From the IMG/VR virus record IMGVR_UViG_3300048837_000378, positions 1-40,793 of that record: 40,793 nt of DNA, one strand, 5' to 3'. Source of the stretch: a virus (taxonomy: Duplodnaviria > Heunggongvirae > Uroviricota > Caudoviricetes). Below are positions 615 to 13,661 of the stretch, one piece after another. The notes under the pieces are model-generated. The model was not told the origin of the DNA. It worked only from the letters and a program-made list of their open reading frames with translations, and ran no database searches. The position numbers were made by a program, and so were the translations under genes. How positions within the stretch are numbered: position 1 is the stretch's first letter; every line of letters starts with the position of its first letter.

Positions 615-790
615 TGGATGCTCGCAGTCATAAGGTGTTTATTATTTTGATACTCGTACATTTCATGTACAATAGCTAAAATCTCCATAAGGTCGTGATG
701 TTGTGCCACTTCGACCTCTTCTTTACCTTCTTTAGCGGTTAAAATATACTTTTTAAGATTTTTACTCTGTTTAATCTCGTCGGTAGTCAC
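611..790 (-). CDS. Hypothetical protein, 59 aa (GTG start)
   Basis: AAAGGAG RBS before GTG; MTTDEIKQSK...MTASIQ fills the gap between neighbours exactly. Confidence 0.6.
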   Translation of the reverse strand: MTTDEIKQSKNLKKYILTAKEGKEEVEVAQHHDLMEILAIVHEMYEYQNNKHLMTASIQ

Positions 791-792
791 AG

Positions 793-1176
793 CTATTCTC
801 CTTTTTCTTCGTTTTGAAATAAAACTTTGCCTTTATCACTATAAGGCATTACATCTTTATGTTGAAATTCAATCTTAGGCCAACCTAAACCTTGTGCTAC
901 AATTTTGTTCCAGAATGGTTTGCCTTTCTTATCAAAATCAAAAGTCATATATCTAACAATAAAAGCTTGGCATTTTTTGTCCATAATGGCGTCGCCTTTG
1001 TTGTGCGGCCTAGTTTTTGCAAACTCAAGGTAATCCTCTAGCAAAGGTTTTGCTTCGTTCATGTCCTCAAGAAACTCAGTCACGAGTTTTGTTAAAACTG
1101 TGCCAGCCTTATCTTGTAATTTGTACTTTTTTAATATTCTTTCAAATTTCTGGAAATTGTCTTTATTAAATTTCAT
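793..1176 (-). CDS. Hypothetical protein with terminal VLF-type motif
   Basis: Start moved to MKFNKD (GAGGT RBS); ends SDKGKVLFQNEEKGE. Confidence 0.75.
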   Translation of the reverse strand: MKFNKDNFQKFERILKKYKLQDKAGTVLTKLVTEFLEDMNEAKPLLEDYLEFAKTRPHNKGDAIMDKKCQAFIVRYMTFDFDKKGKPFWNKIVAQGLGWPKIEFQHKDVMPYSDKGKVLFQNEEKGE

Positions 1177-1205
1177 ATATACCTCTACTGCAAACGGCTT
1201 GCCAA

Positions 1206-1718
1206 CTAATCCATGTGCTGTATGCAACTAGGTTCGTTTTCAGCCGCAGTTTCTAACTTTGATGCGACAAACATTTGACTATTGTCTAACAGTTCGTCGT
1301 AATAATAATCTTTATTATTAGCGTAAAACAGAGAGCTACCGAAAGCATAAGGATACATGATGCTTTTAGGCTGCCCATTGTCCAAGCGTTCTGACCTATG
1401 CCCTAAATTTAGAGTGCAATGGCCTAGCTCGTGGAATATTGTTTGCTCCATAAAATTAGGAGTGTCAATATACTGTTCATAGTAGTCAATATTCACCACG
1501 ACCTCACGCTTACCGCTAGACCACATCTTACAAACTGCTACAGTGTTTGCGTCTAATTGTCCAAGCTGTACTGTATAATTAATAGACACGCCGTAAACAC
1601 GTTCAAACAAGCTTATATGCTCTGCTAATTCTGCTGCGCGAAAAGGTAGCTCTACAGTTTTGTAGCCGCTATCGGCACAACCTACGCAAAATAAGGCTAA
1701 AATTAATAGATACCTCAT
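1206..1718 (-). CDS. Lipoprotein zinc metallopeptidase (metzincin/matrixin-like)
   Basis: Signal/lipobox MRYLLILALFCVGC; HELGHCTLNLGH zinc motif; SIMYP Met-turn. Confidence 0.75.
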   Translation of the reverse strand: MRYLLILALFCVGCADSGYKTVELPFRAAELAEHISLFERVYGVSINYTVQLGQLDANTVAVCKMWSSGKREVVVNIDYYEQYIDTPNFMEQTIFHELGHCTLNLGHRSERLDNGQPKSIMYPYAFGSSLFYANNKDYYYDELLDNSQMFVASKLETAAENEPSCIQHMD

Positions 1719-1960
1719 TGTGCCCACTCCCAACCTTGGCATGGCGCTAATTCGTTTAAGTTTTTAGTTTTAGAAACAATATAAGGTTTAATTTCTGGCA
1801 TATATACGTCGCCAATTTCTGTCTCATAGCCCATTACAACGCATTGGATTGTGTCGTCGTCAAACTTTTCGTCAGTGACGTAGTATTCCCAACCATTTCT
1901 CAAAATGATATGCTCAACTACGTTGATTGTGCTGCCGTATTTATTTTTCATTTGTCTCAT
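1715..1960 (-). CDS. Hypothetical protein, possibly DUF2958-like
   Basis: YVTDE...CVVMGYETEIGDVYMPEI resembles the DUF2958 pattern by eye only; AAGGCGG RBS before MRQMK. Confidence 0.6.
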   Translation of the reverse strand: MRQMKNKYGSTINVVEHIILRNGWEYYVTDEKFDDDTIQCVVMGYETEIGDVYMPEIKPYIVSKTKNLNELAPCQGWEWAQ

Positions 1961-2213
1961 TTGATACCGCCTTGTTAATACTAGTACCATACAAAACCTG
2001 TGCCGCTGGGCAATTTTTTTCTAACTTAATGAAATTATAGTGTAAACTGGCGTGAGCTTTAATTTCAGGCCATTTAAAACTGTGTAAATTATTTACCTTT
2101 GCTATAGATACACAAAAAGTATCGTAATCAAATTCAATAATTTCATATACTTGCTTAGACTGTCTATCTATTACATAGTCGCCTAATTCATAAACACCCA
2201 TAGAATTACCCAT
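1941..2213 (-). CDS. KOW/SH3-like small protein with VLYG motif
   Basis: YELGDYVID; CPAAQVLYG; start embedded in the upstream gene's TAT-GGG codons. Confidence 0.75.
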   Translation of the reverse strand: MGNSMGVYELGDYVIDRQSKQVYEIIEFDYDTFCVSIAKVNNLHSFKWPEIKAHASLHYNFIKLEKNCPAAQVLYGTSINKAVSNETNEK

Positions 2214-2556
2214 AGAGTACCTCAAAAGCTTTTAAATCATCTGCAATTTTTGTCCATCTAATATTTGTTACGGTCCAAGGTGGCATATCTCTTGTAAACT
2301 TTTTAGCCAACATCCAATCTATTTTAAATAGACCTCTGTTTTCGTCCCATTGAAAAACTTGCATTGAATCGCATATCTTAGGACCTCCGCCTATAATTAA
2401 ATGCTCCAACACTTCACCCATTGATTGTGTCAATGTTTTATGATTGTGGTCTATATTCGCCTGCTTAAGTACTAAAGTCCAAGGCGAAGTGTTAACACAA
2501 CAAGCTAACACCGGATAATTTTTATTAGTATGAAACAACACGAAATCAATCGCCAT
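2206..2556 (-). CDS. Hypothetical protein ending in EVLYG
   Basis: Start MAIDF embedded in the upstream CAT-GGC; ends KAFEVLYG-stop. Confidence 0.75.
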   Translation of the reverse strand: MAIDFVLFHTNKNYPVLACCVNTSPWTLVLKQANIDHNHKTLTQSMGEVLEHLIIGGGPKICDSMQVFQWDENRGLFKIDWMLAKKFTRDMPPWTVTNIRWTKIADDLKAFEVLYG

Positions 2557-2809
2557 GCAATACTCGTGCCGTAGGCGATTCGTCAAGTATAAATGGGCAC
2601 TCTTCATCTGCGTGAGGTTGATGTCTATTTTCCCATTCTGAAATTAATTCTTTATTAAGTTCGTCGTCTGTCAATTTATAAAACGTGTTAACTAGCTGTT
2701 CTTCTATATACAAAACCATAGTTTCTGTATCCCAATCTGATACAGCAATATTTTCCATAATAATTTCAATAGCTTGTTCTCTATTTACTATTTGTTTTTT
2801 AGTTTTCAT
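2546..2809 (-). CDS. Hypothetical protein ending in VLHGD
   Basis: ORF track; AAAGGG RBS; ends ESPTARVLHGD. Confidence 0.75.
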   Translation of the reverse strand: MKTKKQIVNREQAIEIIMENIAVSDWDTETMVLYIEEQLVNTFYKLTDDELNKELISEWENRHQPHADEECPFILDESPTARVLHGD

Positions 2810-2810
2810 A

Positions 2811-3113
2811 TTACCCTTTCAAAACTTGAAAAGCTGGACTATTTTTAAGCATCTCAATCACTAGACTAAACTCTTCTGCAACTGCGATGCCAACAGTGTT
2901 ATCAGGTTGTACTTGAACATATTTATCTATTGAAGCAAATGCCAATTTTTTATACACATCATAAGACATAATTATAATAGTTTTAGGTTTTATTGTGTTG
3001 GTAGAGTAGTCTTGTTCTAAGATTTCAATAGGACCGATAATAGCCGAGCGCGGCACAACAAACCTATACTTATCTTTGTGAGTCAGAATGATACAATCAT
3101 TATAGTCCATCAT
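2811..3113 (-). CDS. Hypothetical protein ending in VLKG
   Basis: ORF track; ends NSPAFQVLKG. Confidence 0.75.
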   Translation of the reverse strand: MMDYNDCIILTHKDKYRFVVPRSAIIGPIEILEQDYSTNTIKPKTIIIMSYDVYKKLAFASIDKYVQVQPDNTVGIAVAEEFSLVIEMLKNSPAFQVLKG

Positions 3114-3342
3114 CCCCGACTCCCGTATTGTTTAAGTTTTCTACATTTGTCAATTTATCTAAATAAACCCGCATCATTAGAATTTCACTTTTTAAATTGA
3201 TAAAGTAGCCGAGGCCGTAAGAATCTAGCTCAGAATCAAAAGTTAACTCTTTTACCCAATTATCACAACTGTCTAATTGTTCTACGGATTTACAACTACG
3301 AATAACCTTCATGGCTGCTGTATATTTTGAATTATTGTCCAT
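3100..3342 (-). CDS. Hypothetical protein
   Basis: Start MDNNSK embedded in the upstream TAT-GGA; GGAG RBS. Confidence 0.7.
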   Translation of the reverse strand: MDNNSKYTAAMKVIRSCKSVEQLDSCDNWVKELTFDSELDSYGLGYFINLKSEILMMRVYLDKLTNVENLNNTGVGDDGL

Positions 3343-3595
3343 AAAGTAAATACTCCGTTCTATTACTAATATTGAAGTGTTTACATATATCATGCAGATT
3401 ATATGCCACAACCATATCAATTTGTTCTGGTAATCTTTTCAATAACTTAAGATGCAAGCCTGGGATTTTAAGATTACGTTTAGTGACTATAAAGAAGTCG
3501 CCTGTATATTTGTTAGACAGGTAATCCCCTTTTCTAAAATCGGTAATAAAAACGCCACCAGGCCACAAAGGATTATATTGTCTCTTTTTTGCCAT
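3332..3595 (-). CDS. KOW/SH3-like small protein ending in LLYGQ
   Basis: FRKGDYLSN; start MAKKRQ embedded in the upstream TAT-GGC. Confidence 0.75.
   Translation of the reverse strand: MAKKRQYNPLWPGGVFITDFRKGDYLSNKYTGDFFIVTKRNLKIPGLHLKLLKRLPEQIDMVVAYNLHDICKHFNISNRTEYLLYGQ
3393..3408 (-). promoter_or_regulatory. Possible internal sigma54 promoter
   Basis: TGGCATATAATCTGCA (GG-N10-GC), ~50 nt before the 3342 start; could be chance. Confidence 0.35.
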
Positions 3596-3998
3596 ATAAC
3601 ACCATAAGACTAGAAGGACCATTTTCTACTACAAAATCAATAAAAGGTTTACAACTGTTTAAAAACTTAGCAGCATTTGACGTGTTATTAGTTCTATAAA
3701 CTCTAGCATCGTGTATTGCTTTAGACTCTGCAAGACCTAGGCCAAAAGCTCGCCTAATCTCTTTAATCATAGGTATAGCTTGATTTTTATTGACCGTAAA
3801 TCTTATAACTATAGGCTGGTCAGTATCGTCGTCCGCAAACAGTAGCCTAAGTGTTTTGTATTCGTTTAATTTTGACTCAATTTGAATAACGTTTCTTCGT
3901 TCTTCTTTATTCTCGGGCCAGGCTGCGGCGTCTTGGATACTTTCGCCCATCTCCCATCGACCTGTAGTTCTCTTAACTAAGTATATGATTTTATTCAT
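3573..3998 (-). CDS. Protein with ribosomal L7/L12 C-terminal-like segment and VLYG motif
   Basis: AIPMIKEIRRAFGLGLAESKAIHD resembles the L12 CTD pattern (vIKavReitGLGLkEaK); GPSSLMVLYG near the end. Confidence 0.7.
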   Translation of the reverse strand: MNKIIYLVKRTTGRWEMGESIQDAAAWPENKEERRNVIQIESKLNEYKTLRLLFADDDTDQPIVIRFTVNKNQAIPMIKEIRRAFGLGLAESKAIHDARVYRTNNTSNAAKFLNSCKPFIDFVVENGPSSLMVLYGKKETI

Positions 3999-4044
3999 AA
4001 AAGCCTACCCTGCCTTTGTTTTAGGGGCTATCCAAAACAGCGCC

Positions 4045-4227
4045 CTATTGTTTACAGTCCTCGTATAAGTAAAATAATACAACCGGCCACCCTAATAAAC
4101 CCAGCAACCCCCTAATGATACTACCTATAGTAGCACTCCTGAAGCTCTTATGATTGATTATAGCCATAGTTAAGTAGACACCTAACCCGATACTAGCATA
4201 CATGATTAAAACTGTGTTGTGGTCCAT
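4045..4227 (-). CDS. Small membrane protein, two hydrophobic segments
   Basis: VLIMYASIGLGVYLTMAII and IIRGLLGLLGWPVVLFYL. Confidence 0.7.
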   Translation of the reverse strand: MDHNTVLIMYASIGLGVYLTMAIINHKSFRSATIGSIIRGLLGLLGWPVVLFYLYEDCKQ

Positions 4228-4437
4228 TTAGGAAGCTCTTTCTAGCCATAGGCTATTAATTAGGTGTCCTTCTTCTATCTCTTCAATAGTTACCATATAA
4301 TAGCCATTATTAAGGTTGTCTATACAGCAACTAGCAATAGTTAAGGTTTTACCCTTGTAGTTAGAAAAGTAACCATCGTAGTCAGGGTAGAACTTAACCT
4401 TAGAACCAATTTCCATAACTTGGCTTTTGCCTTTCAT
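4228..4437 (-). CDS. KOW/SH3-like small protein
   Basis: MEIGSKVKF; GGGGG RBS; first gene after the sigma54 site at 4503-4518. Confidence 0.7.
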   Translation of the reverse strand: MKGKSQVMEIGSKVKFYPDYDGYFSNYKGKTLTIASCCIDNLNNGYYMVTIEEIEEGHLINSLWLERAS

Positions 4438-4766
4438 AAAAGGGTACCCCCTATTGTTTTTGAGGTAGTTTCAAAAAGACTACCCCCTTTACTTTTTAGG
4501 TAAGCAGAATTTGTGCCATGTGTTATTTCAATAGGATAGCTGTATAATACCTGTGTAATAAGTGTACAAGTGTATGAGATATGGTGTACAATATACATAT
4601 AGGTCATATAGGTTATAATAGAGGTAATAAGTAGGGTAGTAGATATGGTAAGTAGTTGTAATTGTTTAGGAATAGTAAGTAATTGTAGTAGTAATATTAG
4701 TACAATCGGGGACCAGTTTTCATCTAACCTGCCGGTTTTACTGGTGAAAATAGCATTTTTCATCAT
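4434..4766 (-). CDS. Doubtful low-complexity L/T/I-rich ORF
   Basis: Has an AAGGGT RBS but spans a C-free tract and a sigma54 site. Confidence 0.3.
   Translation of the reverse strand: MMKNAIFTSKTGRLDENWSPIVLILLLQLLTIPKQLQLLTISTTLLITSIITYMTYMYIVHHISYTCTLITQVLYSYPIEITHGTNSAYLKSKGGSLFETTSKTIGGTLL
4503..4518 (-). promoter_or_regulatory. Sigma54 (RpoN) -24/-12 promoter for the leftward operon
   Basis: TGGCACAAATTCTGCT, GG-N10-GC; ~65 nt upstream of the 4437 start. Confidence 0.7.
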
Positions 4767-5017
4767 AAAATACCCTTAAATAGCATATAAAGCTCTATAA
4801 ACTGTAAAAATAGCCTTATTACTACAAACATTATATATAATTTAAGTACTACTAGAGCCTTTTTACCTATAGGTAGAGCTAAAAATTCTATATATAGGGC
4901 TTTCCCTTTCACACATAGCATATACTAGTCCTTTCTCAGTATGAGTCATCTCAAAATGAGACGTATCAGATTAAGACGTATCATTATGAGGCGTTCATTT
5001 TGGTACGAGTAGGCCGT

Positions 5018-5054
5018 TGGCACGGAAATTGCATATATAGCAAATAGCGTACCA
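5018..5054. promoter_or_regulatory. Face-to-face pair of sigma54 promoters
   Basis: + TGGCACGGAAATTGCA (5018-5033); - TGGTACGCTATTTGCT (5054-5039). Confidence 0.8.
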
Positions 5055-5249
5055 GTCCCAAATAGAGACGTATCAGATTGAAAATACCGCATTGAGACGT
5101 AGCTGCAAATACCGTGCTTGTATTGGAATGATACGTAATTCGAATTGTAAGTCTATAAGTATATGAAACTACTAGTGATTCTCAATTTGATATGTGAATA
5201 TTGAGTGGTGTCTAACTGACGTATATTGACTATAAGTTATACAAGCTTG

Positions 5250-5262
5250 TAACCTATTGATT
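5250..5262 (-). promoter_or_regulatory. Possible IHF site
   Basis: AATCAATAGGTTA matches WATCAANNNNTTR; lies between palindromic boxes and the 5365 sigma54 site. Confidence 0.35.
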
Positions 5263-5364
5263 CTATTAAGTAATATGTAATTGTTCTATATATGAGACTC
5301 CCCTTGTATATAAGTTCAACGTACCATCATAAGATTGACAGTCTAAGTACTTGAATTTACGTTG

Positions 5365-5380
5365 TGGCACCTAAACTGCA
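5365..5380 (+). promoter_or_regulatory. Sigma54 promoter for the 5410-6593 operon
   Basis: TGGCACCTAAACTGCA, GG-N10-GC; 30 nt before the ATG at 5410. Confidence 0.75.
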
Positions 5381-5409
5381 TTAGTTACTTGTATGAAAGC
5401 GAGGCATAT

Positions 5410-5640
5410 ATGAATCAGATACCTAGAGGCATATATAAGCACTACAAGAATACAGATACTCATACTATAACGTTTTATACTGAGACTAAGACCTATAGCT
5501 TATCTTGTGATTCACTCTTAGGTTTATTAAGTTTAGTTGATTCGTTCTTTAGCCCTAGACCTGATATGAGTCTAAGTGAATACACTTTAGCTCTAGAGTC
5601 AAGTTTAGACAACACTGTAAAACTTAATAAGGTGGCTTAA
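5410..5640 (+). CDS. Hypothetical protein
   Basis: Start moved to MNQIPRG (GAGG RBS). Confidence 0.7.
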   Translation: MNQIPRGIYKHYKNTDTHTITFYTETKTYSLSCDSLLGLLSLVDSFFSPRPDMSLSEYTLALESSLDNTVKLNKVA

Positions 5641-5641
5641 T

Positions 5642-5824
5642 ATGGTACAGATTAAAGAGTCTCAAGTTGAGGCGGTTATTACAGTGTGCCCGTATTGCAT
5701 GGACGAAGTGTCTCATAACAAGACAGGCTGTTGTGGGGAGAGTTCGTGTCACTTTGAGACGGCTGTGGTATATGATGGCATGGCATACCTTGAAAATGAG
5801 ATTGATATAATTGAAGGACAATAA
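5642..5824 (+). CDS. Small Cys-rich, probably Zn-binding protein
   Basis: CPYC...CCGESSCH; AAGGTGG RBS. Confidence 0.7.
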   Translation: MVQIKESQVEAVITVCPYCMDEVSHNKTGCCGESSCHFETAVVYDGMAYLENEIDIIEGQ

Positions 5825-5864
5825 ACTGTCTCATAACGAGACAATACACTATAACGGGGGTTAT

Positions 5865-6593
5865 ATGTTTAGGAACTACGCTAAAGATGAAATAGAGGCG
5901 CTTCAAATTGAGACAGGCGTCAAGTCTGTACTCACTCAGAATGCTAAAATGAAGCGTTCGTCTCAAAATGGGATTCACTTGTATAACTTCGGTATTCCAG
6001 CCTTTAGGTCTCAAACTGGTCTTGCCACTTGTCCCAATGCGAAACACTGCGTTAAAGGCTGTTATGCTAAAAGCGGCTCTTATCTGTACTCGGGCACCGT
6101 AGCAGCCTATGAGAATCGTCTCAGTTTGACACGAACCAAAGGTTTTGAACAAGTAATAACGTACCATATTGATAAACTCCTCAAAAAACACCCCACTGGT
6201 CTCATATTGATACGGGTGCATGATAGTGGGGACTTTTACAGTGAAACATATCATAGAGCATGGTATTTAATAGCGTCTCAGTATGAGACTAATCCTAGAG
6301 TCAAGTTTTATGCTTATACCAAAATGGTACAGCAGTCTTTAGGCTTATCGGCTTTAGCGCCTAAAAACTTTAGGTTAATTTTTAGTTATGGCGGAAGTGA
6401 AGATTCTCATATTGATACAGAGAAGCATTACCATAGCCGAGTGTTTGAAAGTCTAGAGGCATTGAGTCAAGCCGGATATATAGATGGTACTCACGACGAT
6501 ACTTGCGCTGCCATTGGTCCAGACGTGAAAATAGGTCTAGTATATCATGGTATGCGAAGCTTTAAAAACACAACATGGGATAAGGTCTCATAA
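5865..6593 (+). CDS. Gene product 88-like protein (Cys cluster, radical-SAM-like fold)
   Basis: TCPNAKHCVKGCYA and RVHDSGDFY, FYAYTK motifs typical of the phage gp88 family; start MFRNY with GGGGG RBS. Confidence 0.8.
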   Translation: MFRNYAKDEIEALQIETGVKSVLTQNAKMKRSSQNGIHLYNFGIPAFRSQTGLATCPNAKHCVKGCYAKSGSYLYSGTVAAYENRLSLTRTKGFEQVITYHIDKLLKKHPTGLILIRVHDSGDFYSETYHRAWYLIASQYETNPRVKFYAYTKMVQQSLGLSALAPKNFRLIFSYGGSEDSHIDTEKHYHSRVFESLEALSQAGYIDGTHDDTCAAIGPDVKIGLVYHGMRSFKNTTWDKVS

Positions 6594-6610
6594 TGATATA
6601 ACCCCCAAGC

Positions 6611-6644
6611 TGGCACGGTAGTTGCTTATGCAATTGCTGTGCCA
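6611..6644. promoter_or_regulatory. Second face-to-face pair of sigma54 promoters
   Basis: + TGGCACGGTAGTTGCT (6611-6626); - TGGCACAGCAATTGCA (6644-6629). Confidence 0.85.
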
Positions 6645-6839
6645 GTCTCTTTATTATACATAATTCGAAATATGGCTTATATTGAGACATTCGAGGACTG
6701 TCTAAGGTATGACTCTCGTATATAAGTTCGCCACCTGCTAAGTACTTATAACTATTAAGCTTATTAGAACTAAGGCTATATTGACTATAAGTTGTACGTC
6801 TTCTCTATTCGAGACTTGAGTAATTACAACTACTTAGGT

Positions 6840-6855
6840 TGGCACGAGGACTGCA
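6840..6855 (+). promoter_or_regulatory. Sigma54 promoter
   Basis: TGGCACGAGGACTGCA, GG-N10-GC. Confidence 0.75.
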
Positions 6856-6867
6856 ATACTAGTATAT

Positions 6868-6963
6868 ATGAAGACGTTAACTGTTACAACTAAGAAGATA
6901 AGTGATAAGCAAATAAAACAACTAGAGTGTTTAGGCTTTAAAGTTAAAGTGATTTTAAAATAA
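6868..6963 (+). CDS. Putative 31-aa basic peptide, near-leaderless
   Basis: MKTLTVTTKKISDKQIKQLECLGFKVKVILK; the ATG is ~2 nt after the predicted sigma54 start site. Confidence 0.45.
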   Translation: MKTLTVTTKKISDKQIKQLECLGFKVKVILK

Positions 6964-7004
6964 ACCGTCTCTATATGAGACATAACTATACCTAGGGGGT
7001 ATAT

Positions 7005-7256
7005 ATGAAGCATTCAGTAAAACAAACAGTATTCAACGCATTGAATACAGAACTAGAATCTGGTCGCATGACCTTGACTCAGTTACTCAATCCCAATTGG
7101 GGACAGTGTCAAGACTTTGGTCTATTCATTACTGGACTAGTGTCTTATATTGGCACTAATTATGGTACTGTCAGACCTGAAACTGTAAACGTATATATTA
7201 GAAGCTTTAAAGCTAAGGAACGACGCAAGTTGTCTCAAGCTAAAACAACTATCTAA
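7005..7256 (+). CDS. Hypothetical protein
   Basis: ORF track; AGGGGG RBS. Confidence 0.75.
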   Translation: MKHSVKQTVFNALNTELESGRMTLTQLLNPNWGQCQDFGLFITGLVSYIGTNYGTVRPETVNVYIRSFKAKERRKLSQAKTTI

Positions 7257-7281
7257 AAGTTAGACATTGTATCATACTGAG

Positions 7282-7304
7282 CCGTACCTCTAAGGGGGGT
7301 ACGG
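7282..7304 (+). terminator. Hairpin, probable terminator of the + operon
   Basis: CCGTACCTC-TAAGG-GGGGTACGG; U-tail is weak. Confidence 0.5.
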
Positions 7305-7537
7305 TAATCAGTTTACCTCCCCTAACCCCTCCAGTTACCAAAAGAGTATCGGTTTGGAATTTTAAAAAAAATTAAAAATCAAACTTACGTATTATAATAT
7401 TATACTCTTAAAGGTATATTTTAACAGTTTAAAGCTCTAACTAGTTAATAAGACTGGCTTATGTATTTACGTATATTAACTAATATAAGGGGTACTACCA
7501 TTAAAACGGACTCTACAACAAAGTGACATTCTAAATT

Positions 7538-7777
7538 TTAAAAAATTCTTAAAAAGGAACTAGTGGTGATTACATCAGGTATAGGGTCTGGACTGGGCCA
7601 ATATAACGTAATTTCAGCCTTAGTAGCCAATCTACAAGTAAACATACCATCTTCTAAATACCAACGGTTATAATTACCATTATCCCATAAAACTTCAAAC
7701 CACCTGTTAGTAACTCGGGATATCTTACCCATACTAACGTCAGTGACTATAATGTCGCCTTTATTAAAAGGGACCAT
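7538..7777 (-). CDS. KOW/SH3-like small protein
   Basis: FNKGDIIV; start embedded in the upstream TAT-GGT. Confidence 0.7.
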   Translation of the reverse strand: MVPFNKGDIIVTDVSMGKISRVTNRWFEVLWDNGNYNRWYLEDGMFTCRLATKAEITLYWPSPDPIPDVITTSSFLRIF

Positions 7778-8015
7778 ATAAAGTCTCTATAACTTTGATT
7801 CTAGTGTCTGAGTCGTCTACAACTTCAAATAGCCGCTGTAAATCGTACCTAGTAAAGTGAAGTTCATTTCCAGTATTAAAGGAATAGAATAGAAGCTCAT
7901 AAGGCTTATTTCTTACGTAGTTATTAACTTTAATAAACTTATATAGCCTAGTGTGGTCTAGGGATACCCAGTCGCCAGGTTGCAATAAATTGATTTCTCT
8001 AAACGTCATTGCCAT
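7764..8015 (-). CDS. KOW/SH3-like small protein with TLYG motif
   Basis: LQPGDWVSL; ends KVIETLYGPF; start MAMTF embedded in the upstream TAT-GGC. Confidence 0.75.
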   Translation of the reverse strand: MAMTFREINLLQPGDWVSLDHTRLYKFIKVNNYVRNKPYELLFYSFNTGNELHFTRYDLQRLFEVVDDSDTRIKVIETLYGPF

Positions 8016-8304
8016 ATAACAGCTCGCCAGCAGGAGTATGTGGCACAAAAGTAACGTAGTCCATATTAACCCAACACCGCGTATTATACAGTTCAATAAG
8101 TAAAGTATTATCTTCTATTTTAAATTCTGTCAATTCTTCTTGTATCAAAGCCCAAGGTCCGTTGTCAATTTGACGGTAATATTCTAATTTGACTGGAATA
8201 GCAAGTTTAACGTAAGTATCAGTCTTTTCTAAATAAAATAGAGGACTATCTGACATATAAGCGTGTAACAGCTTGACTTGTTGGGCAGGAACTTTAGCTT
8301 CCAT
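7999..8304 (-). CDS. Hypothetical protein with LLYG motif
   Basis: Start MEAKVP (AGGA RBS); ends TPAGELLYGNDV. Confidence 0.75.
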   Translation of the reverse strand: MEAKVPAQQVKLLHAYMSDSPLFYLEKTDTYVKLAIPVKLEYYRQIDNGPWALIQEELTEFKIEDNTLLIELYNTRCWVNMDYVTFVPHTPAGELLYGNDV

Positions 8305-8641
8305 CTGAAGGTCCTGTAAGTACTTGTAAAGCTGGAGTTTCTTCAAATACGCTAAAATGGTGTACGTTATTAGCGTCAATCTCTAACCTAGCAGTACCAG
8401 CAGCTAGAGTCCAATTAACTACTGATAAGCTAATAGAGTCTTTTGTAAAAGAATAGGCTCTAACTTCAAATATATGAAATTTACCGTTATTATCTAGATA
8501 TTCAGGGTTTGTATAGACTAAGTGACATATAGTAGTCCTACCTATGTCGTAGGGCCTCTCAGCTTCTTTTTGAGCTTTAGTCAACTTGTATCTTTTTAAT
8601 TGTTTCTTTAAGACGTTCAAGGGTAGAGCTTTTCTAGGCAT
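8294..8641 (-). CDS. Hypothetical protein with VLTG motif
   Basis: AGGAG RBS; ends TPALQVLTGPSDGS. Confidence 0.75.
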   Translation of the reverse strand: MPRKALPLNVLKKQLKRYKLTKAQKEAERPYDIGRTTICHLVYTNPEYLDNNGKFHIFEVRAYSFTKDSISLSVVNWTLAAGTARLEIDANNVHHFSVFEETPALQVLTGPSDGS

Positions 8642-8772
8642 TATAAGCTCCTAATAGCCCGTTTAAGGCGTCTCATCTCATCAAGGCTGATACTGGGGTA
8701 CATCCAGTAATCTAAAGGAATCTGAGGCGTTATAGAGGCCGACGCTTGCAAGGGCTTAGGTGGCATGCTCAT
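8641..8772 (-). CDS. Putative 43-aa protein
   Basis: MSMPPKPLQAS...RRLKRAIRSL; its TAA overlaps the next ATG. Confidence 0.4.
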   Translation of the reverse strand: MSMPPKPLQASASITPQIPLDYWMYPSISLDEMRRLKRAIRSL

Positions 8773-8804
8773 ATATTGACTCTACTGTAACCTAGGTAGA
8801 ACAT

Positions 8805-9398
8805 TTATAGCATACCTTGTTGTTTAGCCTTATTACGTAAGTACGTCATAAAGTTATCTTGAGTGTAAGTAACAGCTTCAGTAGCTCCTATCACAGTTTT
8901 AGAAGGCTTAGACAAAGTTATAAATATTTCGTTATGATGATTTTTAAAAGTTTTAAGGTTAACCCAACCGTCTTGTTTGACAATTTCAGAAGCTATTGCT
9001 AAATAAGGATTAGGGGTCGAGGATGCGATTGTGCCAGAGCTTGAAGAGTCAGACCGAGTAGTACTTCTTTTATCGTAGTTTAGAAGGTCTGACCCAGGCT
9101 TAGGGGTTCCTAGGTTGCCTGTCCCTATTACCTTAGTTCTTTTTTCTAGTTCGTTTTTTAGGTTTTGTAAGGTCGTAGAAGAACGTGACGTCGTCTTCTG
9201 GGCTAGAGGGTACGACGTGAACTTTTGGTTTACGTTTGTTTGTCGATTTTCGGGGGCGGCCTTCGGCCTTGACAGGGCTAGGGAGGCTCGGAGGGTATAT
9301 ACTTTTTTTTTAAGCTGAAGTACTAACTGGTACAATTTAGTACCAAGGTTTATGACAGCTTCGCCTAACAAAGTTAGGAAATCTTTATTTTGTTCCAT
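8805..9398 (-). CDS. Hypothetical protein with S/T/K-rich disordered middle
   Basis: ORF track; directly follows a sigma70 promoter. Confidence 0.7.
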   Translation of the reverse strand: MEQNKDFLTLLGEAVINLGTKLYQLVLQLKKKVYTLRASLALSRPKAAPENRQTNVNQKFTSYPLAQKTTSRSSTTLQNLKNELEKRTKVIGTGNLGTPKPGSDLLNYDKRSTTRSDSSSSGTIASSTPNPYLAIASEIVKQDGWVNLKTFKNHHNEIFITLSKPSKTVIGATEAVTYTQDNFMTYLRNKAKQQGML

Positions 9399-9404
9399 AC
9401 TTAA

Positions 9405-9433
9405 GCTATATCAAACTTGTTAGTTTGAGTCAA
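9405..9433 (-). promoter_or_regulatory. Sigma70 promoter with a palindrome in the spacer
   Basis: TTGACT-N17-TATAGC; spacer holds TCAAACT-N4-AGTTTGA (9411-9428); predicted +1 is at or near the ATG at 9398. Confidence 0.65.
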
Positions 9434-9441
9434 GCAATATA

Positions 9442-9639
9442 TTACTTTGACTTGATTTCTTCTCCAAATAAGACTTCTCTGTTATCAACTATCTTGGCGT
9501 CTACCCATTCCCCATACTCAAGTATCTTTTCTCCGAAACTTTGACGAAGAAAAGTCTCTGCGTTATCTAATTTCTCTTCGTAGTCCTTACCTTTGATTTT
9601 TACGCCCATAGCGTCAAACAAGCCATTATCCAACATCAT
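9442..9639 (-). CDS. Hypothetical protein with EVLFG motif
   Basis: Start moved to MMLDNG (AGGGG RBS), which removes a 170-nt overlap; ends NREVLFGEEIKSK. Confidence 0.65.
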   Translation of the reverse strand: MMLDNGLFDAMGVKIKGKDYEEKLDNAETFLRQSFGEKILEYGEWVDAKIVDNREVLFGEEIKSK

Positions 9640-9688
9640 CTGAGCGTTGCCCCTAAATCCTAACACTCCATTGTGTATTTTAGTTGCG

Positions 9689-10066
9689 TCATTTACTGCC
9701 GCCAGAAATTCCTTTTCCTGGCCCACTTTGGCTACCAAATATTTTTGGGTCAAGGAGGCTTCGTTTGATGAAGTTGAGGGCTTCTTGGATTTTGGCTTTG
9801 CGGTCGTCCTTGGCTTTTTCTTCATCTTCAGTGTCTCCATGTAAAAGTCTGTAATTTCCAATATTTATAAGTTTTAAGAAACTCATTTTTTCAATTTTAA
9901 AACGATGTCTAATTAGAGTTTGTTTTGTATCGTAGTCTAGAATCTCATAAGCATGACCATCATATTCACATTTAAAAACATCCAATACTAGGTAATGGTT
10001 ACGTTCATCTATTAACTCCGAGCCTGGAGCGTATTTGGCTAATCTTTTATAACCGTTATTGCCCAT
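9689..10066 (-). CDS. Hypothetical protein with internal RLLHG motif and charged tail
   Basis: Start MGNNGY embedded in the upstream GAT-GGG. Confidence 0.7.
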   Translation of the reverse strand: MGNNGYKRLAKYAPGSELIDERNHYLVLDVFKCEYDGHAYEILDYDTKQTLIRHRFKIEKMSFLKLINIGNYRLLHGDTEDEEKAKDDRKAKIQEALNFIKRSLLDPKIFGSQSGPGKGISGGSK

Positions 10067-10493
10067 CAAATAACACCTTAGTTGTTTCTGAATATGGGGC
10101 CAATTCATCTTGAGGAATGAATCTACTAGAAGGTGTAATTCTTCCGTCTTTTCCAACAGTTACAAAATGTACCACATATCCAGGCGGCGACTCTTTAGTC
10201 CAACCTTCAGGAGCATTTGGAGGAGAAGAACCCCAATCCGTATAAAGTTTAAAAATTGAGTCCACAAAAGGAGCGACAACAATTCCGTTACCAAACTCCT
10301 TATTGAATACGACTTCTCCTCGTTTATACGTTAAAGAGGAAACTTCAGCTATAGCTTGAACTATACCGGCTCTACGAGCCTCTAGCCTTTTTAGGTCAGC
10401 GTTTAATACTTCTAGAGTATCTCTATAAGGTATTTGTGCAAAAGTAGCAGCTTTAAAAGTTTCTAAAATTTTACTAATATCATCATTTTCCAT
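10056..10493 (-). CDS. Coiled-coil plus KOW/SH3-like protein with VLF motif
   Basis: YKRGEVVFNKEFGNGIVV; ends ETTKVLFDGQ; GAGGT RBS. Confidence 0.75.
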   Translation of the reverse strand: MENDDISKILETFKAATFAQIPYRDTLEVLNADLKRLEARRAGIVQAIAEVSSLTYKRGEVVFNKEFGNGIVVAPFVDSIFKLYTDWGSSPPNAPEGWTKESPPGYVVHFVTVGKDGRITPSSRFIPQDELAPYSETTKVLFDGQ

Positions 10494-10526
10494 TATACCT
10501 CTTTAAATACTATATACTATAATCTA

Positions 10527-10549
10527 GTAACTTTCTACAAGAAAGTTAC
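10527..10549. promoter_or_regulatory. Perfect inverted repeat, operator-like
   Basis: GTAACTTTCT-ACA-AGAAAGTTAC upstream of 10493. Confidence 0.5.
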
Positions 10550-10694
10550 GTACTAGTATGTTCTATATAAATTACATAGTTTTATTTAATATCACACTTT
10601 TTATATAAAGTAAATAGGGAATTAAAAATAAATTCATTTTATATTGAATCCTCCTTAAACCCCCGTTCCGCAGCCCCCCTTTATGGTTCCTTTT

Positions 10695-10710
10695 TGCAAA
10701 ATACATGCCA
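10695..10710 (-). promoter_or_regulatory. Sigma54 promoter (leftward)
   Basis: TGGCATGTATTTTGCA, GG-N10-GC. Confidence 0.7.
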
Positions 10711-10716
10711 AACTTC

Positions 10717-10744
10717 TTGACATACCTATATTTTATGTTATAAC
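10717..10744 (+). promoter_or_regulatory. Sigma70 promoter (rightward)
   Basis: TTGACA-N16-TATAAC with TG extended -10; AGGAG RBS follows. Confidence 0.65.
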
Positions 10745-10759
10745 CAATATAGGAGTACT

Positions 10760-11266
10760 ATGGCTAAAAATCAAAAAACTATAGATATAACAACTATTAC
10801 GTCAGGTACACAAGTAAACTGGCCAACTTTCGTTTATGACAGTTTTCATAAGGCTCGGTCCTTTAATATGAACAGATTCATAAATTACTGTCACCCTGGT
10901 ACAGTATTAGTACACGGCACCAGTAAGGTTAAGTGGACGGTTAAAGAACTTGTAAAAGTAAAAGAAGGTTATGACGAATGGCCCTATACCGAATCTACTA
11001 CTGATAAGATTTTTGTTTCTATAGAATCTGAAAAAGGTTATAAAAAACAAGTAGATACAGAACAATTTTATATGTACGACATTGTTCATATTCCTAAAGC
11101 TGTAGAAGTTCTTTGGGGCAGTTTGGCGGACAATCCTACAAAAAAACCAGAAGACTTTATTGCCGAACAAGCAGGTATATTTTTTATGGAGTTGCAGGTA
11201 CGTAAACCGGCTTCTATGACCTATATTCCGATTACTCTGCATTTGCCGGTTATAAAAAATGAGTAG
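10760..11266 (+). CDS. Hypothetical protein, KOW/SH3-like, with internal EVLWG motif
   Basis: CHPGTVLVH; PKAVEVLWG. Confidence 0.75.
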   Translation: MAKNQKTIDITTITSGTQVNWPTFVYDSFHKARSFNMNRFINYCHPGTVLVHGTSKVKWTVKELVKVKEGYDEWPYTESTTDKIFVSIESEKGYKKQVDTEQFYMYDIVHIPKAVEVLWGSLADNPTKKPEDFIAEQAGIFFMELQVRKPASMTYIPITLHLPVIKNE

Positions 11267-11591
11267 ATTTCCCCGAGTCGGAGACTATATTAAATTTGAA
11301 CAACTGTTCACTGTAAATTTAGGAGACTTAGGGTCAGGTCCTTTGTATATAGATATACCTAAAAATACAATATGTGAAGTACTTGATACTCATATAACTA
11401 AAGACGATAAACGTTCTTCAATGATAGACTACGCTCCATTTCAAATATATTTGGGTATAACAGATAAAAATATATCTCCTCATAAATTTATCATAAGATT
11501 CAACTACTTACAACATCAAGAGATTGTATCTATAATTCCAGGAGGGAACCCAAAAACGGTGGAAACACTGTTCGGTCAAAATGAAAGTTAA
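11259..11591 (+). CDS. KOW/SH3-like protein with TLFG motif
   Basis: PRVGDYIKF; ends NPKTVETLFGQNES. Confidence 0.75.
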   Translation: MSRFPRVGDYIKFEQLFTVNLGDLGSGPLYIDIPKNTICEVLDTHITKDDKRSSMIDYAPFQIYLGITDKNISPHKFIIRFNYLQHQEIVSIIPGGNPKTVETLFGQNES

Positions 11592-11823
11592 CGAATACCA
11601 AAATTTCAAAAAAGGCGACTTCGCATTAGTAGCGAATAAATTAGTTAAGATAGTTCATTTTAAAGTGTATTATACGGGATTAGGTTTGGAGTATGGAGAA
11701 GTGTTTTTCAAATACGTTAAAGACGATAACAGCTTCACTTTTAATGCCTCAATAACTCTTCTTAAAAAATTAGAACAAGGCCCAGCTAAGGTGTTGTATG
11801 GTTCCAGTAAAAGCCAATTCTAA
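11581..11823 (+). CDS. KOW/SH3-like protein with VLYG motif
   Basis: FKKGDFALV; GPAKVLYG. Confidence 0.75.
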   Translation: MKVNEYQNFKKGDFALVANKLVKIVHFKVYYTGLGLEYGEVFFKYVKDDNSFTFNASITLLKKLEQGPAKVLYGSSKSQF

Positions 11824-12085
11824 ACAATTTAGGGGTTTTTTGCAAGACGGCTTCGTAACTGACGCATTATTACGTCCGTATTTTACACCTGGAAATCTCT
11901 ATCTAGTTAAAATTACTACATATTTTGATGAATATGGTAACGAGACCTCCATAGAAATGATAATAGTTGACGAATTGACCGGATTCTCTAAACTAATAGA
12001 ATTGCCTCCGTATTACATAAATGACCTGTTTATCGAGGCTAAATCTCCAGCAGCCTCCGTCTTATTTGCAAAACCGTCAAAATAA
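11798..12085 (+). CDS. KOW/SH3-like protein with VLFA motif
   Basis: FTPGNLYLV; ends SPAASVLFAKPSK. Confidence 0.75.
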   Translation: MVPVKANSKQFRGFLQDGFVTDALLRPYFTPGNLYLVKITTYFDEYGNETSIEMIIVDELTGFSKLIELPPYYINDLFIEAKSPAASVLFAKPSK

Positions 12086-12098
12086 TTGACACTACACG

Positions 12099-12122
12099 TT
12101 GACTTAGCATACACATTATAAT
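12099..12122 (+). promoter_or_regulatory. Promoter-like motif with short spacer, copy 1
   Basis: TTGACTTAGCATACACATTATAAT (TTGACT-N12-TATAAT). Confidence 0.45.
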
Positions 12123-12141
12123 AGGGCATGAGGAGTCACCT

Positions 12142-12369
12142 ATGGACCTACGTTTTATAGAATGGCAACAGTCCATTTACATTGTGATAGGTATAGGTCA
12201 AGATACTAAATTTGACCCGCCAGACGTGTATTATTGCATCCTGCTAGAAAATTCTCTCATAGCTGACGTCTTAAGGGCTATAGACACTGTTATTATACCT
12301 TTTTCAGAAGCTATTGAAATTACTGATAAAAATAGAGTAAAGGCTATAAATATTTTATTTGGCAGGTAA
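12142..12369 (+). CDS. Small beta-rich protein ending in ILFGR
   Basis: GAGGAG RBS; ends KAINILFGR. Confidence 0.75.
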   Translation: MDLRFIEWQQSIYIVIGIGQDTKFDPPDVYYCILLENSLIADVLRAIDTVIIPFSEAIEITDKNRVKAINILFGR

Positions 12370-12370
12370 T

Positions 12371-12610
12371 ATGCAATGGTCTAAGTTTAATATTGGAGAT
12401 TCTGTTATATATCAAGGACTGGTGTATAAAGTAAGAAGTGTTCACGCTTTAAACTGGAGCATGAATAATCCCTTTGTTTACGGGTTGATTTTGGCTCACA
12501 AATCTTCAGACGGCTGCGTATCTAGACAAGTTTACGTATGCGAACAACAAATAGCCGAAGCAACCACTCAACAAATACAAGTGTGGGAGTTACTATATGG
12601 CAACAGATAA
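12371..12610 (+). CDS. KOW/SH3-like protein ending in LLYGNR
   Basis: FNIGDSVIY; ends QVWELLYGNR. Confidence 0.75.
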   Translation: MQWSKFNIGDSVIYQGLVYKVRSVHALNWSMNNPFVYGLILAHKSSDGCVSRQVYVCEQQIAEATTQQIQVWELLYGNR

Positions 12611-12875
12611 GAGTAGAATTTTTACCGAATTAATTGAAGTTCATCTAAAAGAGATGAATATTGTAGAAATCTACCACAACAAAAGTATTGATTTTAAAGC
12701 TAAAGATGTGGTACAGTGTAGCTATATGAAGGGTCTTTACGAAGTAAAACTCATCACGCCCACGTACTTAGAGGTGGCTCCAATCGAAAATAACAGCCTA
12801 CGCCATTTTATAGGACCTAATTTTCTAAAAAAAGTCTCTATAAACCAGAATATAAGGAAAATATTATATGATTAA
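12597..12875 (+). CDS. KOW/SH3-like protein ending in ILYD
   Basis: FKAKDVVQC; ends NIRKILYD. Confidence 0.75.
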   Translation: MATDKSRIFTELIEVHLKEMNIVEIYHNKSIDFKAKDVVQCSYMKGLYEVKLITPTYLEVAPIENNSLRHFIGPNFLKKVSINQNIRKILYD

Positions 12876-13149
12876 TATAAATACTGGAGATTATATTTTA
12901 GGTAAAGACGAAATCTGGGAAATAACAAATATATACCAATCTGGACAAGATACTCTTTTTAATTTGAGATTACTCTCAGAGCCTGGCGACTTTTTAGAAG
13001 TATACGACCATGAGTTAGCAGAATACAAAGGCGCGGAACCAGTAGATAGGTTAGTTGGAGTATCCTTCAGTTATATCAAACACTTAGGTCAAATCGTCCC
13101 CAAAGATTCTCAAAAGGCAGTAGAAATTCTATTCAAAGATAACAAATAA
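12868..13149 (+). CDS. KOW/SH3-like protein with ILF motif
   Basis: INTGDYILG; ends QKAVEILFKDNK. Confidence 0.75.
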   Translation: MININTGDYILGKDEIWEITNIYQSGQDTLFNLRLLSEPGDFLEVYDHELAEYKGAEPVDRLVGVSFSYIKHLGQIVPKDSQKAVEILFKDNK

Positions 13150-13155
13150 AAACCA

Positions 13156-13178
13156 TTGACTTAGTATACACATATAAT
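13156..13178 (+). promoter_or_regulatory. Promoter-like motif with short spacer, copy 2
   Basis: TTGACTTAGTATACACATATAAT (TTGACT-N11-TATAAT). Confidence 0.45.
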
Positions 13179-13196
13179 ATATGAATGGGGCATCGA

Positions 13197-13541
13197 ATGT
13201 CAAACAAATCTGATAAGTTTTCATCTCCAGAAGATGAACAAGACGACGACACTTTTGCTGACATGACCCCTGAACAATATAAAAAGTTGATGGAGGATAT
13301 TGAAAACTTCAACACTTCATTTTTGAGTCATTTGGCTGGAACATCAAATTACGAGTTAGTACCAACTGAAAACGAATTTGGTGAATATTTAGAAGACGGA
13401 CACTATAAATTAATTAAAAAAGAATGTGCCAAAACTGGAGCTAAAATATTATATACTTATTCTATAAGTCCTAATATTAGTATTGTGATTGAACCTAAAT
13501 CATTAAAGTCAATTATTTTACAAGAAGGGGAATTGCATTAA
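13197..13541 (+). CDS. Hypothetical acidic protein
   Basis: GGGG RBS before MSNKSD. Confidence 0.7.
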   Translation: MSNKSDKFSSPEDEQDDDTFADMTPEQYKKLMEDIENFNTSFLSHLAGTSNYELVPTENEFGEYLEDGHYKLIKKECAKTGAKILYTYSISPNISIVIEPKSLKSIILQEGELH

Positions 13542-13661
13542 ACAGTAGCTTTTAATAAGCTCAGATTTAATCCTCCCCCAGGCTCCTAATTGAATCCCCT
13601 TGTAACGTCCTGTTACCTTTTAGGGGCCATTTTTTTCTTCTTAATTTGAAAAGAGGAGAAT

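What the first reader, a model, noticed from the sequence alone, without database searches (positions are those of the whole stretch)
3393..10710. Phage early region driven by a cluster of sigma54 (RpoN) promoters
Sites matching TGG[CT]A[CT]-N5-[TC]TGC[AT] with exact GG-N10-GC spacing: 4518-4503(-), 5018-5033(+), 5054-5039(-), 5365-5380(+), 6611-6626(+), 6644-6629(-), 6840-6855(+), 10710-10695(-), and more weakly 3408-3393(-). Several sit 12-65 nt ahead of operon starts. None precedes the structural genes. Sigma54 holoenzyme is silent without an AAA+ activator, so this would make phage transcription conditional on a host signalling pathway. That is unusual for phages, whose early promoters are normally sigma70-type. 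It also implies an RpoN-containing host.
Basis: partly seen in the sequence, partly recalled or inferred. Interest (0 to 1): 0.78.

Follow-up and report, generated by a model that had tools for sequence, protein, structure and literature searches.

The report
Sigma-54 promoters and enhancers in phage
An uncultured 105-kb phage and its relatives pack their presumed first-expressed genes with textbook binding sites for the bacterial sigma-54 RNA polymerase and about 26 enhancer-like palindromes, yet no activator gene was found, so part of their early transcription probably depends on a host signalling protein, an arrangement I found no published description of.

Summary
All nine sites are real: 10 matches against 0.28 expected, essentially only at the N5 spacing. 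The cluster recurs in nine related uncultured phages of about 110 kb. Some sites behave like promoters. Across the clade 11 of 100 boxes sit 21-29 nt before a start codon (null 1.3, flipped strand 0), and 11 of 88 have an ATG exactly 12 nt downstream, including a conserved 31-codon leaderless gene at 6868. No activator or sigma-54 gene was found. Many boxes face no gene, form mirror pairs or abut a sigma-70 promoter, so 'driven by sigma-54' is too strong. The same mirror pair occurs in cultured Pseudomonas Pakpunaviruses, whose terminal repeat and RNA-seq-defined early region carry further boxes, so the idea is testable now. The host is unresolved and 'early' is inferred. YuA is a single-promoter precedent. 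This scan already noted similar clusters in at least 17 other phage genomes.

The parts
1189..1204 (-). RpoN-type box (11/12) with an ATG exactly 12 nt downstream (gene 793-1176); leaderless-type geometry
2556..2571 (-). RpoN-type box (11/12, CGG variant), intragenic, overlapping the start of the next gene
2877..2892 (-).
3393..3408 (-). Weak RpoN-type box (9/12), 50 nt before the start at 3342
4503..4518 (-). RpoN-type box (10/12), 65 nt before gene 4228-4437, at the head of the leftward small-gene block
4933..7283 (.). Array of 26 15-bp palindromes GTMTCA-N3-TGAKAC (up to 2 mismatches), 11 per kb against 0.17 per kb in the rest of the genome; candidate enhancer (bEBP) sites
   Evidence: similar predicted enhancers
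4933..4992 (.). Four tandem palindromes at an exact 15-bp period, 25-70 nt upstream of the 5018 box
5018..5054 (.). Mirror (face-to-face) pair 1: 5018-5033(+, 12/12) and 5039-5054(-, 11/12), gap 5, at the divergence point of gene orientation; palindromes at 5055 and 5070 abut the minus box
5365..5380 (+). RpoN-type box (10/12), 29 nt before the ATG at 5410; a second ATG 12 nt after the box opens a 6-codon uORF (5393-5413) overlapping that start
5865..6593 (+). GP88-family gene (PF17338) carrying 7 palindromes in its coding sequence (1.1 expected from codon resampling)
6609..6646 (.). Mirror pair 2: 6611-6626(+, 12/12) and 6629-6644(-, 11/12), gap 2; also folds into a 17-bp RNA hairpin with a T-rich tail just after the GP88 stop (possible terminator)
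6840..6855 (+). RpoN-type box (11/12), kept at the same place in relatives G001 and G014
6868..6963 (+). Conserved 31-codon ORF starting 12 nt after the 6840 box with no ribosome-binding site in range (leaderless); homologues in 5 relatives
7005..7256 (+). 83-aa helical protein; the model resembles helix-turn-helix/homeodomain folds only weakly (best Z 6.9); candidate phage-encoded binder of the palindromes
7294..7330 (.). Conserved G-run/C-run element at the right edge of the array (present in 6 relatives), preceded by an RpoN box in three of them; possible genome-end or RNA element
10695..10710 (-). RpoN-type box (11/12), 201 nt before gene 10056-10493, back to back with a sigma-70-type promoter; plus-oriented at the orthologous place in G001 and L124
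10717..10744 (+). Sigma-70-type promoter (exact -35, 16-nt spacer, near-consensus -10 preceded by TG) before gene 10760, head of the arm leading to terminase and structural genes

Best explanation
The boxes are binding sites for the host's sigma-54 RNA polymerase, and a subset (here 1189, 4503, 5365, 6840 and genome 81010; possibly 2877, 3393 and mirror pair 1) are true promoters for small, probably early, phage genes. No activator was found in the phage, so a host enhancer-binding protein (NtrC/AcoR type, Fis-like helix-turn-helix) would melt these promoters. The dense palindrome array at 4933-7283 would recruit and concentrate it next to the promoters, making part of early expression conditional on the host state in which that activator is on. 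The remaining boxes (mirror pairs, boxes next to sigma-70 promoters) probably hold silent holoenzyme or give antisense transcripts. Shown: motif, polarity, conservation, promoter-like placement, array enrichment inside a coding sequence, no recognisable phage activator. Inferred: RpoN binding, transcription from the sites, identity of the palindrome binder, early timing, host.
For: Exact RpoN consensus and spacing. Clusters upstream of terminase in G001, G003, G007, G013, G014, G020/L129, L125 and L130, with a partial cluster in L124; none in about 75 GP88 loci outside the clade. In 100 clade boxes: 67 intergenic (null 30), 11 at 21-29 nt before a same-strand start (null 1.3; flipped strand 0), 25 at 15-60 nt (null 6.9). 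An ATG lies exactly 12 nt after the box in 11 of 88 non-mirror boxes (background 1.5, corrected p 2e-5; about 9 independent events), and a pyrimidine-purine step peaks at the same offset. This fits a start at C+14, next to the C+13 that follows if the melted -12/-11 pair (PMC11839083) lies just after the GC (my own knowledge). A conserved leaderless 31-codon gene lies behind box 6840. The position before the recA-neighbour gene has a 12/12 box in this phage and a sigma-70-type extended -10 in G020. No fixed sigma-70 -10 at 16-18 nt. The palindrome array co-occurs with the boxes in 8 of 10 clade members and exceeds codon-resampled nulls inside GP88 in 5 of 8. It abuts the -24 element 13 times against 2.3 expected. 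It resembles predicted enhancers of CdsR2, BldR and DioR (PMC6615313 Table S3) and DVU2394 (PMC4641369). No PF00158, PF04552, PF02954 or GAFTGA motif in this record or the clade loci held.
Against: 62 of 100 boxes have no same-strand start within 110 nt. Twenty-six sites far exceed the 2-3 of a normal enhancer, and sites abutting -24 are too close for looping (own knowledge). G007 and G013 keep the boxes without this palindrome, and so do Pakpunaviruses. No integration-host-factor site lies between the tandem array and box 5018. The enhancer motifs compared are predictions from unrelated bacteria. The host is not identified. This record lacks about 9 percent of its genome. The ATG signal was not seen in unrelated phage loci. 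Clade members are not independent, and gene starts come from my own heuristic.
Confidence: 0.5

Rival explanations
1. The boxes bind host sigma-54 holoenzyme but mostly stay silent. They act as decoys that trap holoenzyme or activator on the first-injected DNA, or as occlusion sites that damp neighbouring sigma-70 promoters; early genes are read mainly by sigma-70.
For: Most boxes face no gene. Mirror pairs 1-8 nt apart are unlikely to hold two holoenzymes at once (own knowledge) yet are very common in viral contigs (at least 119 stretches against 0 for an N6 control), and their spacers are not complementary, so they are not hairpins in general. The box beside the sigma-70 promoter at 10717 flips orientation in G001 and L124. 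In JG004 and PaP1 the mirror pair sits between divergent sigma-70 promoters. Sigma-54 is mostly bound inactive in vivo and can repress overlapping promoters (PMC4591121).
Against: It does not explain the strand-specific 21-29 nt spacing, the ATG at +12 or the leaderless conserved ORF. Few good sigma-70 promoters lie in 4.4-7.3 kb. Ten sites are few against more than 250 host sites in E. coli, and a roadblock effect was not seen there.
Confidence: 0.23
2. Sigma-54 promoters are real but are switched on or off by phage products: a non-canonical phage activator (the MoxR-type AAA+ ATPase or a small protein) and a phage DNA-binding protein, such as the 83-aa protein at 7005-7256, that coats the palindrome array.
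For: The 83-aa gene lies inside the array and has homologues in array-bearing G001, L124, G014 and G003, with none detected in G007 or G013. Its model is helical with weak helix-turn-helix-like matches. The density and the in-gene sites look like a coating or operator array. Relatives carry a MoxR-like AAA+ gene beside a VWA gene, probably in the part missing from this record.
Against: The AAA+ protein has no GAFTGA loop and does not match a bacterial enhancer-binding protein by tblastn. The fold match is weak (Z 6.9, no Foldseek E below 1). The gene was not detected in array-bearing L125 or G020. The first transcripts cannot depend on a phage protein unless it is injected.
Confidence: 0.14
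3. The boxes are not read by sigma-54 but by a phage-encoded sigma-like or operator-binding protein, or serve as variant sigma-70 -35 elements, and resemble the RpoN consensus by convergence.
For: The phage encodes a protein with a sigma-70 region-4-like helix-turn-helix (genome 96695-97591). The first six bases of a box differ from the sigma-70 -35 hexamer by one letter, and 2 of 25 close boxes have a good -10 at 16 nt.
Against: The match covers both RpoN half-sites at one exact spacing and is polar: 1 of 100 sites has the symmetric right half. There is no consistent -10 at 16-18 nt. The same element occurs in unrelated phages, including Pseudomonas phages whose host has RpoN.
Confidence: 0.11
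4. Chance or a compositional artefact.
For: Sites scoring only 10/12 occur by chance about 2.7 times per genome, so a few weak ones (3393, 12360) may be spurious.
Against: 9 sites at 11/12 or better against 0.07 expected; exact spacer; clustering; recurrence in relatives whose DNA in this region barely aligns.
Confidence: 0.02

Closest known systems
Bacterial sigma-54 (RpoN) enhancer-dependent promoters, e.g. glnAp2 with NtrC and the E. coli set of PMC4591121
   Same: GG-N10-GC consensus, polarity, A/T-rich melting region, start near C+13, palindromic 6-3-6 upstream sites of Fis-type helix-turn-helix geometry.
   Different: On a phage; about 12 boxes and 26 palindromes within a few kb; no activator gene nearby; mirror pairs; palindromes inside genes and touching the -24 element; leaderless starts.
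Predicted enhancer sites of Clostridiales CdsR2, BldR, DioR (PMC6615313) and Desulfovibrio DVU2394 (PMC4641369)
   Same: Nearly the same 15-17-bp palindrome, tandem copies, paired with RpoN boxes.
   Different: Those occur 1-3 times, roughly 80-250 nt upstream of the box, for a chromosomal activator; they are predictions, and these bacteria are not shown to be the host.
Pseudomonas phage YuA promoter P015 (PMC10914365, citing Ceyssens et al. 2008)
   Same: A sigma-54-like promoter with a mapped start in a virulent phage.
   Different: One promoter, not a cluster; YuA has no match to the strict pattern; no enhancer array reported; I could not obtain the original paper.
Pakpunaviruses PaP1, JG004 and PAK_P4 (cultured Pseudomonas aeruginosa myoviruses)
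   Same: The same gap-2 mirror pair at the head of the early block. In PaP1, 4 of 9 boxes lie in the 1190-bp terminal repeat (binomial p 3e-6). PAK_P4 has 7 boxes against 0.19 expected in the region that RNA-seq defines as early.
   Different: Not close relatives (no Pakpunavirus among the best terminase or capsid matches); their early genes carry sigma-70-type promoters; they lack this palindrome. The papers read do not mention the boxes.
Repeated early-promoter cassettes (PeSL elements of T4-like phages, SPO1 host-takeover module; own knowledge)
   Same: Repeated promoter elements heading small, variable early genes near a genome end.
   Different: Those are sigma-70/sigma-A promoters that need no activator.

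Membership tests
Sigma-54 (RpoN) -24/-12 promoter | GG and GC dinucleotides exactly 10 bases apart within the TGGCAC-N5-TTGCW consensus | tested here: met
   11 sites with N5, 2 with N3, 0 with N4, N6, N7, N8
Sigma-54 (RpoN) -24/-12 promoter | Polar element oriented toward, and close to, a gene start | tested here: met
   Met for a subset only: 11 of 100 at 21-29 nt (null 1.3, flipped strand 0), 25 at 15-60 nt; 62 of 100 have no start within 110 nt
Sigma-54 (RpoN) -24/-12 promoter | Transcription start 12-14 nt after the conserved C | tested here: inconclusive
   Indirect only: ATG and pyrimidine-purine peak at C+14 in the clade; no RNA data
Sigma-54 (RpoN) -24/-12 promoter | Bound by RpoN holoenzyme and dependent on rpoN | not testable with these tools
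   needs ChIP, footprinting or mutants
Sigma-54 (RpoN) -24/-12 promoter | Host encodes RpoN | tested here: inconclusive
   Host not assigned; the analogous Pakpunavirus host has RpoN (own knowledge)
Enhancer-binding-protein (bEBP) enhancer | Palindromic site of Fis-type helix-turn-helix geometry near an RpoN box | tested here: met
   resembles predicted sites
Enhancer-binding-protein (bEBP) enhancer | Two or three sites about 80-150 nt upstream of the start, often with an IHF site between | tested here: inconclusive
   The tandem of four lies 25-70 nt upstream of box 5018 and several sites lie about 140-150 nt upstream of promoter-like boxes, but many are intragenic or abut -24; no IHF site between array and box
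Enhancer-binding-protein (bEBP) enhancer | Cognate AAA+ activator with a GAFTGA loop binds the site | not testable with these tools
   None found in the phage; host unknown
Phage-encoded sigma-54 system | Phage gene for sigma-54 or a bEBP | tested here: not met
   complete relative G013 has only a PhoH-like hit, G007 a MoxR-like one; this record is 91 percent complete
Sigma-70 early promoter | -35 and -10 hexamers 16-18 nt apart at the boxes | tested here: not met
   mean score 7.5 against 7.1 shuffled; no fixed -10 offset; a separate sigma-70-type promoter exists at 10717-10744
Intrinsic terminator (mirror pairs) | Complementary arms including the variable spacers, followed by a U run | tested here: not met
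   150 viral pairs pair no better than shuffled; window pair 2 is an exception that does form a 17-bp hairpin
Direct terminal repeat / first-injected segment | Doubled read depth and fixed ends around the region | not testable with these tools

The most novel reading that the evidence does not exclude
A widespread class of lytic phages runs part of its first transcription wave from host sigma-54 promoters and carries a dense copy of a host enhancer to capture a signal-responsive host activator, so that infection proceeds only in a particular host state. If the host is a predatory Bdellovibrionota bacterium, as earlier unchecked scan notes on the same palindrome suggest, the phage could wait for the prey-feeding phase.
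Probability: 0.3. Interest if true: 0.9.

Novelty: new variant of a known kind. Interest (0 to 1): 0.7.

Why it matters
Phage early transcription is generally taught as sigma-70-driven or driven by a phage polymerase. Sigma-54 promoters need an ATP-burning, usually signal-controlled activator, so using them would give a lytic phage a built-in sensor of host physiology; trapping them would be a DNA-only way to disturb host regulons. The same boxes sit, unremarked in the papers read, in the terminal repeat and early block of Pakpunaviruses, common Pseudomonas therapy phages, so existing phages and rpoN mutants can test the idea directly.

Tried and rejected
No cultured close relative: best terminase matches 24-28 percent, capsid about 30 percent, tail tube none. 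Host assignment failed. Two MAG bins disagree (Ignavibacteriaceae, Deltaproteobacteria) and one is the whole phage contig co-binned; peptide deformylase and lipoprotein homologues gave mixed or no taxa; 151 genomes of the second bin's phylum hold 0-3 exact palindromes each. I could not reach a Bdellovibrio genome, so the Bdellovibrionales lead is untested; Bdellovibrio phage phi1422 has neither motif. Fold searches for the 83-aa protein gave no clear match. The sigma-70 scan of 1-14500 was at chance level (55 against 51). Terminator origin of mirror pairs rejected in general. The G-run/C-run element folds no better than shuffles. T5 has 3 scattered matches, BUCTxx99 one, and RHEph10, hairong and YuA none, so the feature is not universal. 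Ten literature searches found no paper on clustered sigma-54 sites in phages; the library lacks most subscription journals, and the TSS tables of PMC10914365 were not held.

Full report
Setting. The window is bases 1-40793 of a 104,793-base virus record, 37 percent G+C, about 91 percent complete. Terminase, capsid and putative tail genes run on the plus strand from 14.5 kb. Small hypothetical genes run leftwards from about 4.4 kb, and the replication arm (genome 104.6 to 62.9 kb) is also on the minus strand. No cultured phage is close (terminase 24-28 percent). Relatives with 68-86 percent terminase identity exist in IMG/VR and groundwater metagenomes. 'Early' is an inference from gene content; no RNA or read data could be obtained.

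Observation. All nine sites are there, plus 2877-2892(-): 10 matches against 0.28 expected. Against the independent literature consensus, 9 sites score at least 11 of 12 genome-wide against 0.07 in shuffles, and only the N5 spacer is enriched. Ten of 11 strict sites fall in 2877-10710; the other is a perfect site in the replication arm at genome 81010. None lies in the structural arm.

Conservation. Clusters lie a few to about 15 kb upstream of terminase in G001, G003, G007, G013, G014, G020/L129, L125 and L130, with a partial cluster in L124. The DNA of this region barely aligns outside GP88, and GP88 loci outside the clade have no clusters. So the element is kept while its surroundings turn over.

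Are they promoters? I pooled 100 boxes from ten clade members; a few are chance matches at 10/12, the members are related, and gene starts come from my own heuristic. Of these, 67 are intergenic (jittered null 30). Eleven lie 21-29 nt before a same-strand start (null 1.3, maximum 6; none if the strand is flipped) and 25 lie 15-60 nt before one (null 6.9). After removing mirror partners, 11 of 88 have an ATG exactly 12 nt after the box (background 1.5 per offset, corrected p 2e-5; about 9 independent events), and a pyrimidine-purine step peaks at the same offset. That places the start at C+14. Sigma-54 melts the -12/-11 pair first (PMC11839083); from my own knowledge that pair follows the GC, giving C+13. 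The clearest case is a 31-codon ORF at 6868-6963, conserved in five relatives. Here and in G001 and G014 it begins 12 nt after a box with no ribosome-binding site in range; in G002 it has a ribosome-binding site and no adjacent box. Likewise, the gene before recA has a 12/12 box 25 nt upstream in this phage and a sigma-70-type extended -10 in G020. There is no fixed sigma-70 -10 behind the boxes, and the element is polar rather than a dyad operator. The ATG signal was not seen in unrelated phage loci, so it is a property of this clade.

But most boxes are not simple gene promoters. Sixty-two of 100 have no start within 110 nt. In the window, 5018/5054 and 6611/6644 are mirror pairs with gaps of 5 and 2. 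Such pairs occur in at least 119 stretches of viral contigs against 0 for an N6 control. Their spacers are not complementary, so they are paired protein sites rather than hairpins; window pair 2 does also fold into a terminator-like hairpin after GP88. Box 10695-10710 lies back to back with a sigma-70-type promoter at 10717-10744 and is plus-oriented at the same place in G001 and L124, which suggests an orientation-independent role such as occlusion. Sigma-54 is known to sit inactive on DNA and to repress overlapping promoters (PMC4591121).

The missing activator. The record has no PF00158, PF04552 or PF02954 match. No GAFTGA motif or similarity to a bacterial enhancer-binding protein was found in it or in the clade loci held. 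Weak hits in relatives are PhoH-like and MoxR-like. What the phage does carry is a second motif: 26 copies of a 15-bp palindrome, GTMTCA-N3-TGAKAC, in 4933-7283, 11 per kb against 0.17 elsewhere. Four are tandem at a 15-bp period upstream of box 5018. The array accompanies the boxes in eight of ten members, but not G007 or G013. It exceeds codon-resampled nulls inside GP88 in five of eight members and touches the -24 element 13 times against 2.3 expected. Nearly the same palindrome is the predicted enhancer of several sigma-54 activators (PMC6615313 Table S3; PMC4641369). Both cis parts of a sigma-54 system are therefore present without the proteins. Earlier scan notes report this palindrome as a large operator set in Bdellovibrionales; I could not check that, and my own host tests were inconclusive. 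A phage-encoded binder remains possible: the 83-aa protein at 7005-7256 models as a small helical domain with weak helix-turn-helix matches.

Cultured analogues. Mirror pair 2 finds Pakpunaviruses by blastn (weak E-values, confirmed by pattern scans). JG004 and PaP1 have the same gap-2 pair at the head of the early block, between divergent sigma-70-type promoters. In PaP1, 4 of 9 boxes lie in the last 1190 bp, the published terminal repeat, which holds g156 and g157 (p 3e-6). PAK_P4 has 7 boxes against 0.19 expected in the region that RNA-seq defines as early, gp080-gp124 (PMC5563952). Its annotated antisense RNA as16 begins near the minus box of the pair, but the boundaries are rounded, so this is weak. 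These phages lack the palindrome, and the papers read do not mention the boxes. The only published precedent I found is one sigma-54-like promoter in YuA (PMC10914365).

Mechanism and verdict. Most likely (0.5), host sigma-54 holoenzyme binds the boxes, a subset fires as promoters of small early genes, and a host activator is gathered by the palindrome array; the other boxes hold silent holoenzyme or make antisense RNA. Rivals: mainly silent decoy or occlusion (0.23), phage-encoded activator or binder (0.14), non-sigma-54 reader (0.11), chance (0.02). The first two readings can both hold at different sites. The parts are textbook; their use by a phage in this form is not described in the papers I could search. 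It is a new variant of a known kind, seen before by this scan in at least 17 other genomes and testable now in Pakpunaviruses. Interest 0.7.

Noticed in passing
window 7294-7330: A G-run/C-run element (starts GGGG-x-TACGG) is conserved at the right edge of the palindrome array in 6 relatives, preceded by an RpoN box in three and by a sigma-70-like -10 in G013; possible genome end, packaging site or small RNA.
   Followed up: partly
window 6868-6963: Unannotated conserved 31-aa basic protein (probably strand-helix-strand), leaderless in three phages; function unknown.
   Followed up: partly
genome G000 96695-97591 (L104:1695-2591, minus; P0007): Protein with a sigma-70 region-4-like helix-turn-helix, conserved in G020; candidate late-transcription factor.
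   Followed up: partly
genome G000 103134-104594 and the missing gap; L113:535-1626: DUF2201/VWA gene whose MoxR-type AAA+ partner is present in G007 and G020 and probably lies in the part missing from this record.
   Followed up: partly
L106 11700-15000 (G007): Each small gene cassette is headed by a sense RpoN box and followed by an inverted box just after the stop codon.
   Followed up: no
L270 13527-14716 (PaP1 terminal repeat); L282 15532-16481 (PAK_P4): Four RpoN boxes in the Pakpunavirus terminal-repeat region around the HNH gene, plus three before the first early gene; not mentioned in the papers read.
   Followed up: partly
window 17754-18437: LAGLIDADG homing endonuclease in the head-gene region between terminase and capsid.
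   Followed up: no
window 1206-1718 and genome 82152-82685, 72318-72614: Two secreted or lipid-anchored zinc-peptidase-like genes and a small c-type cytochrome-like lipoprotein, pointing to a diderm host.
   Followed up: partly
L136, L138, L124, L130 (contig starts): Four relatives' contigs begin at or inside the palindrome array, as would be expected if it were a terminal repeat or a hypervariable break point.
   Followed up: no
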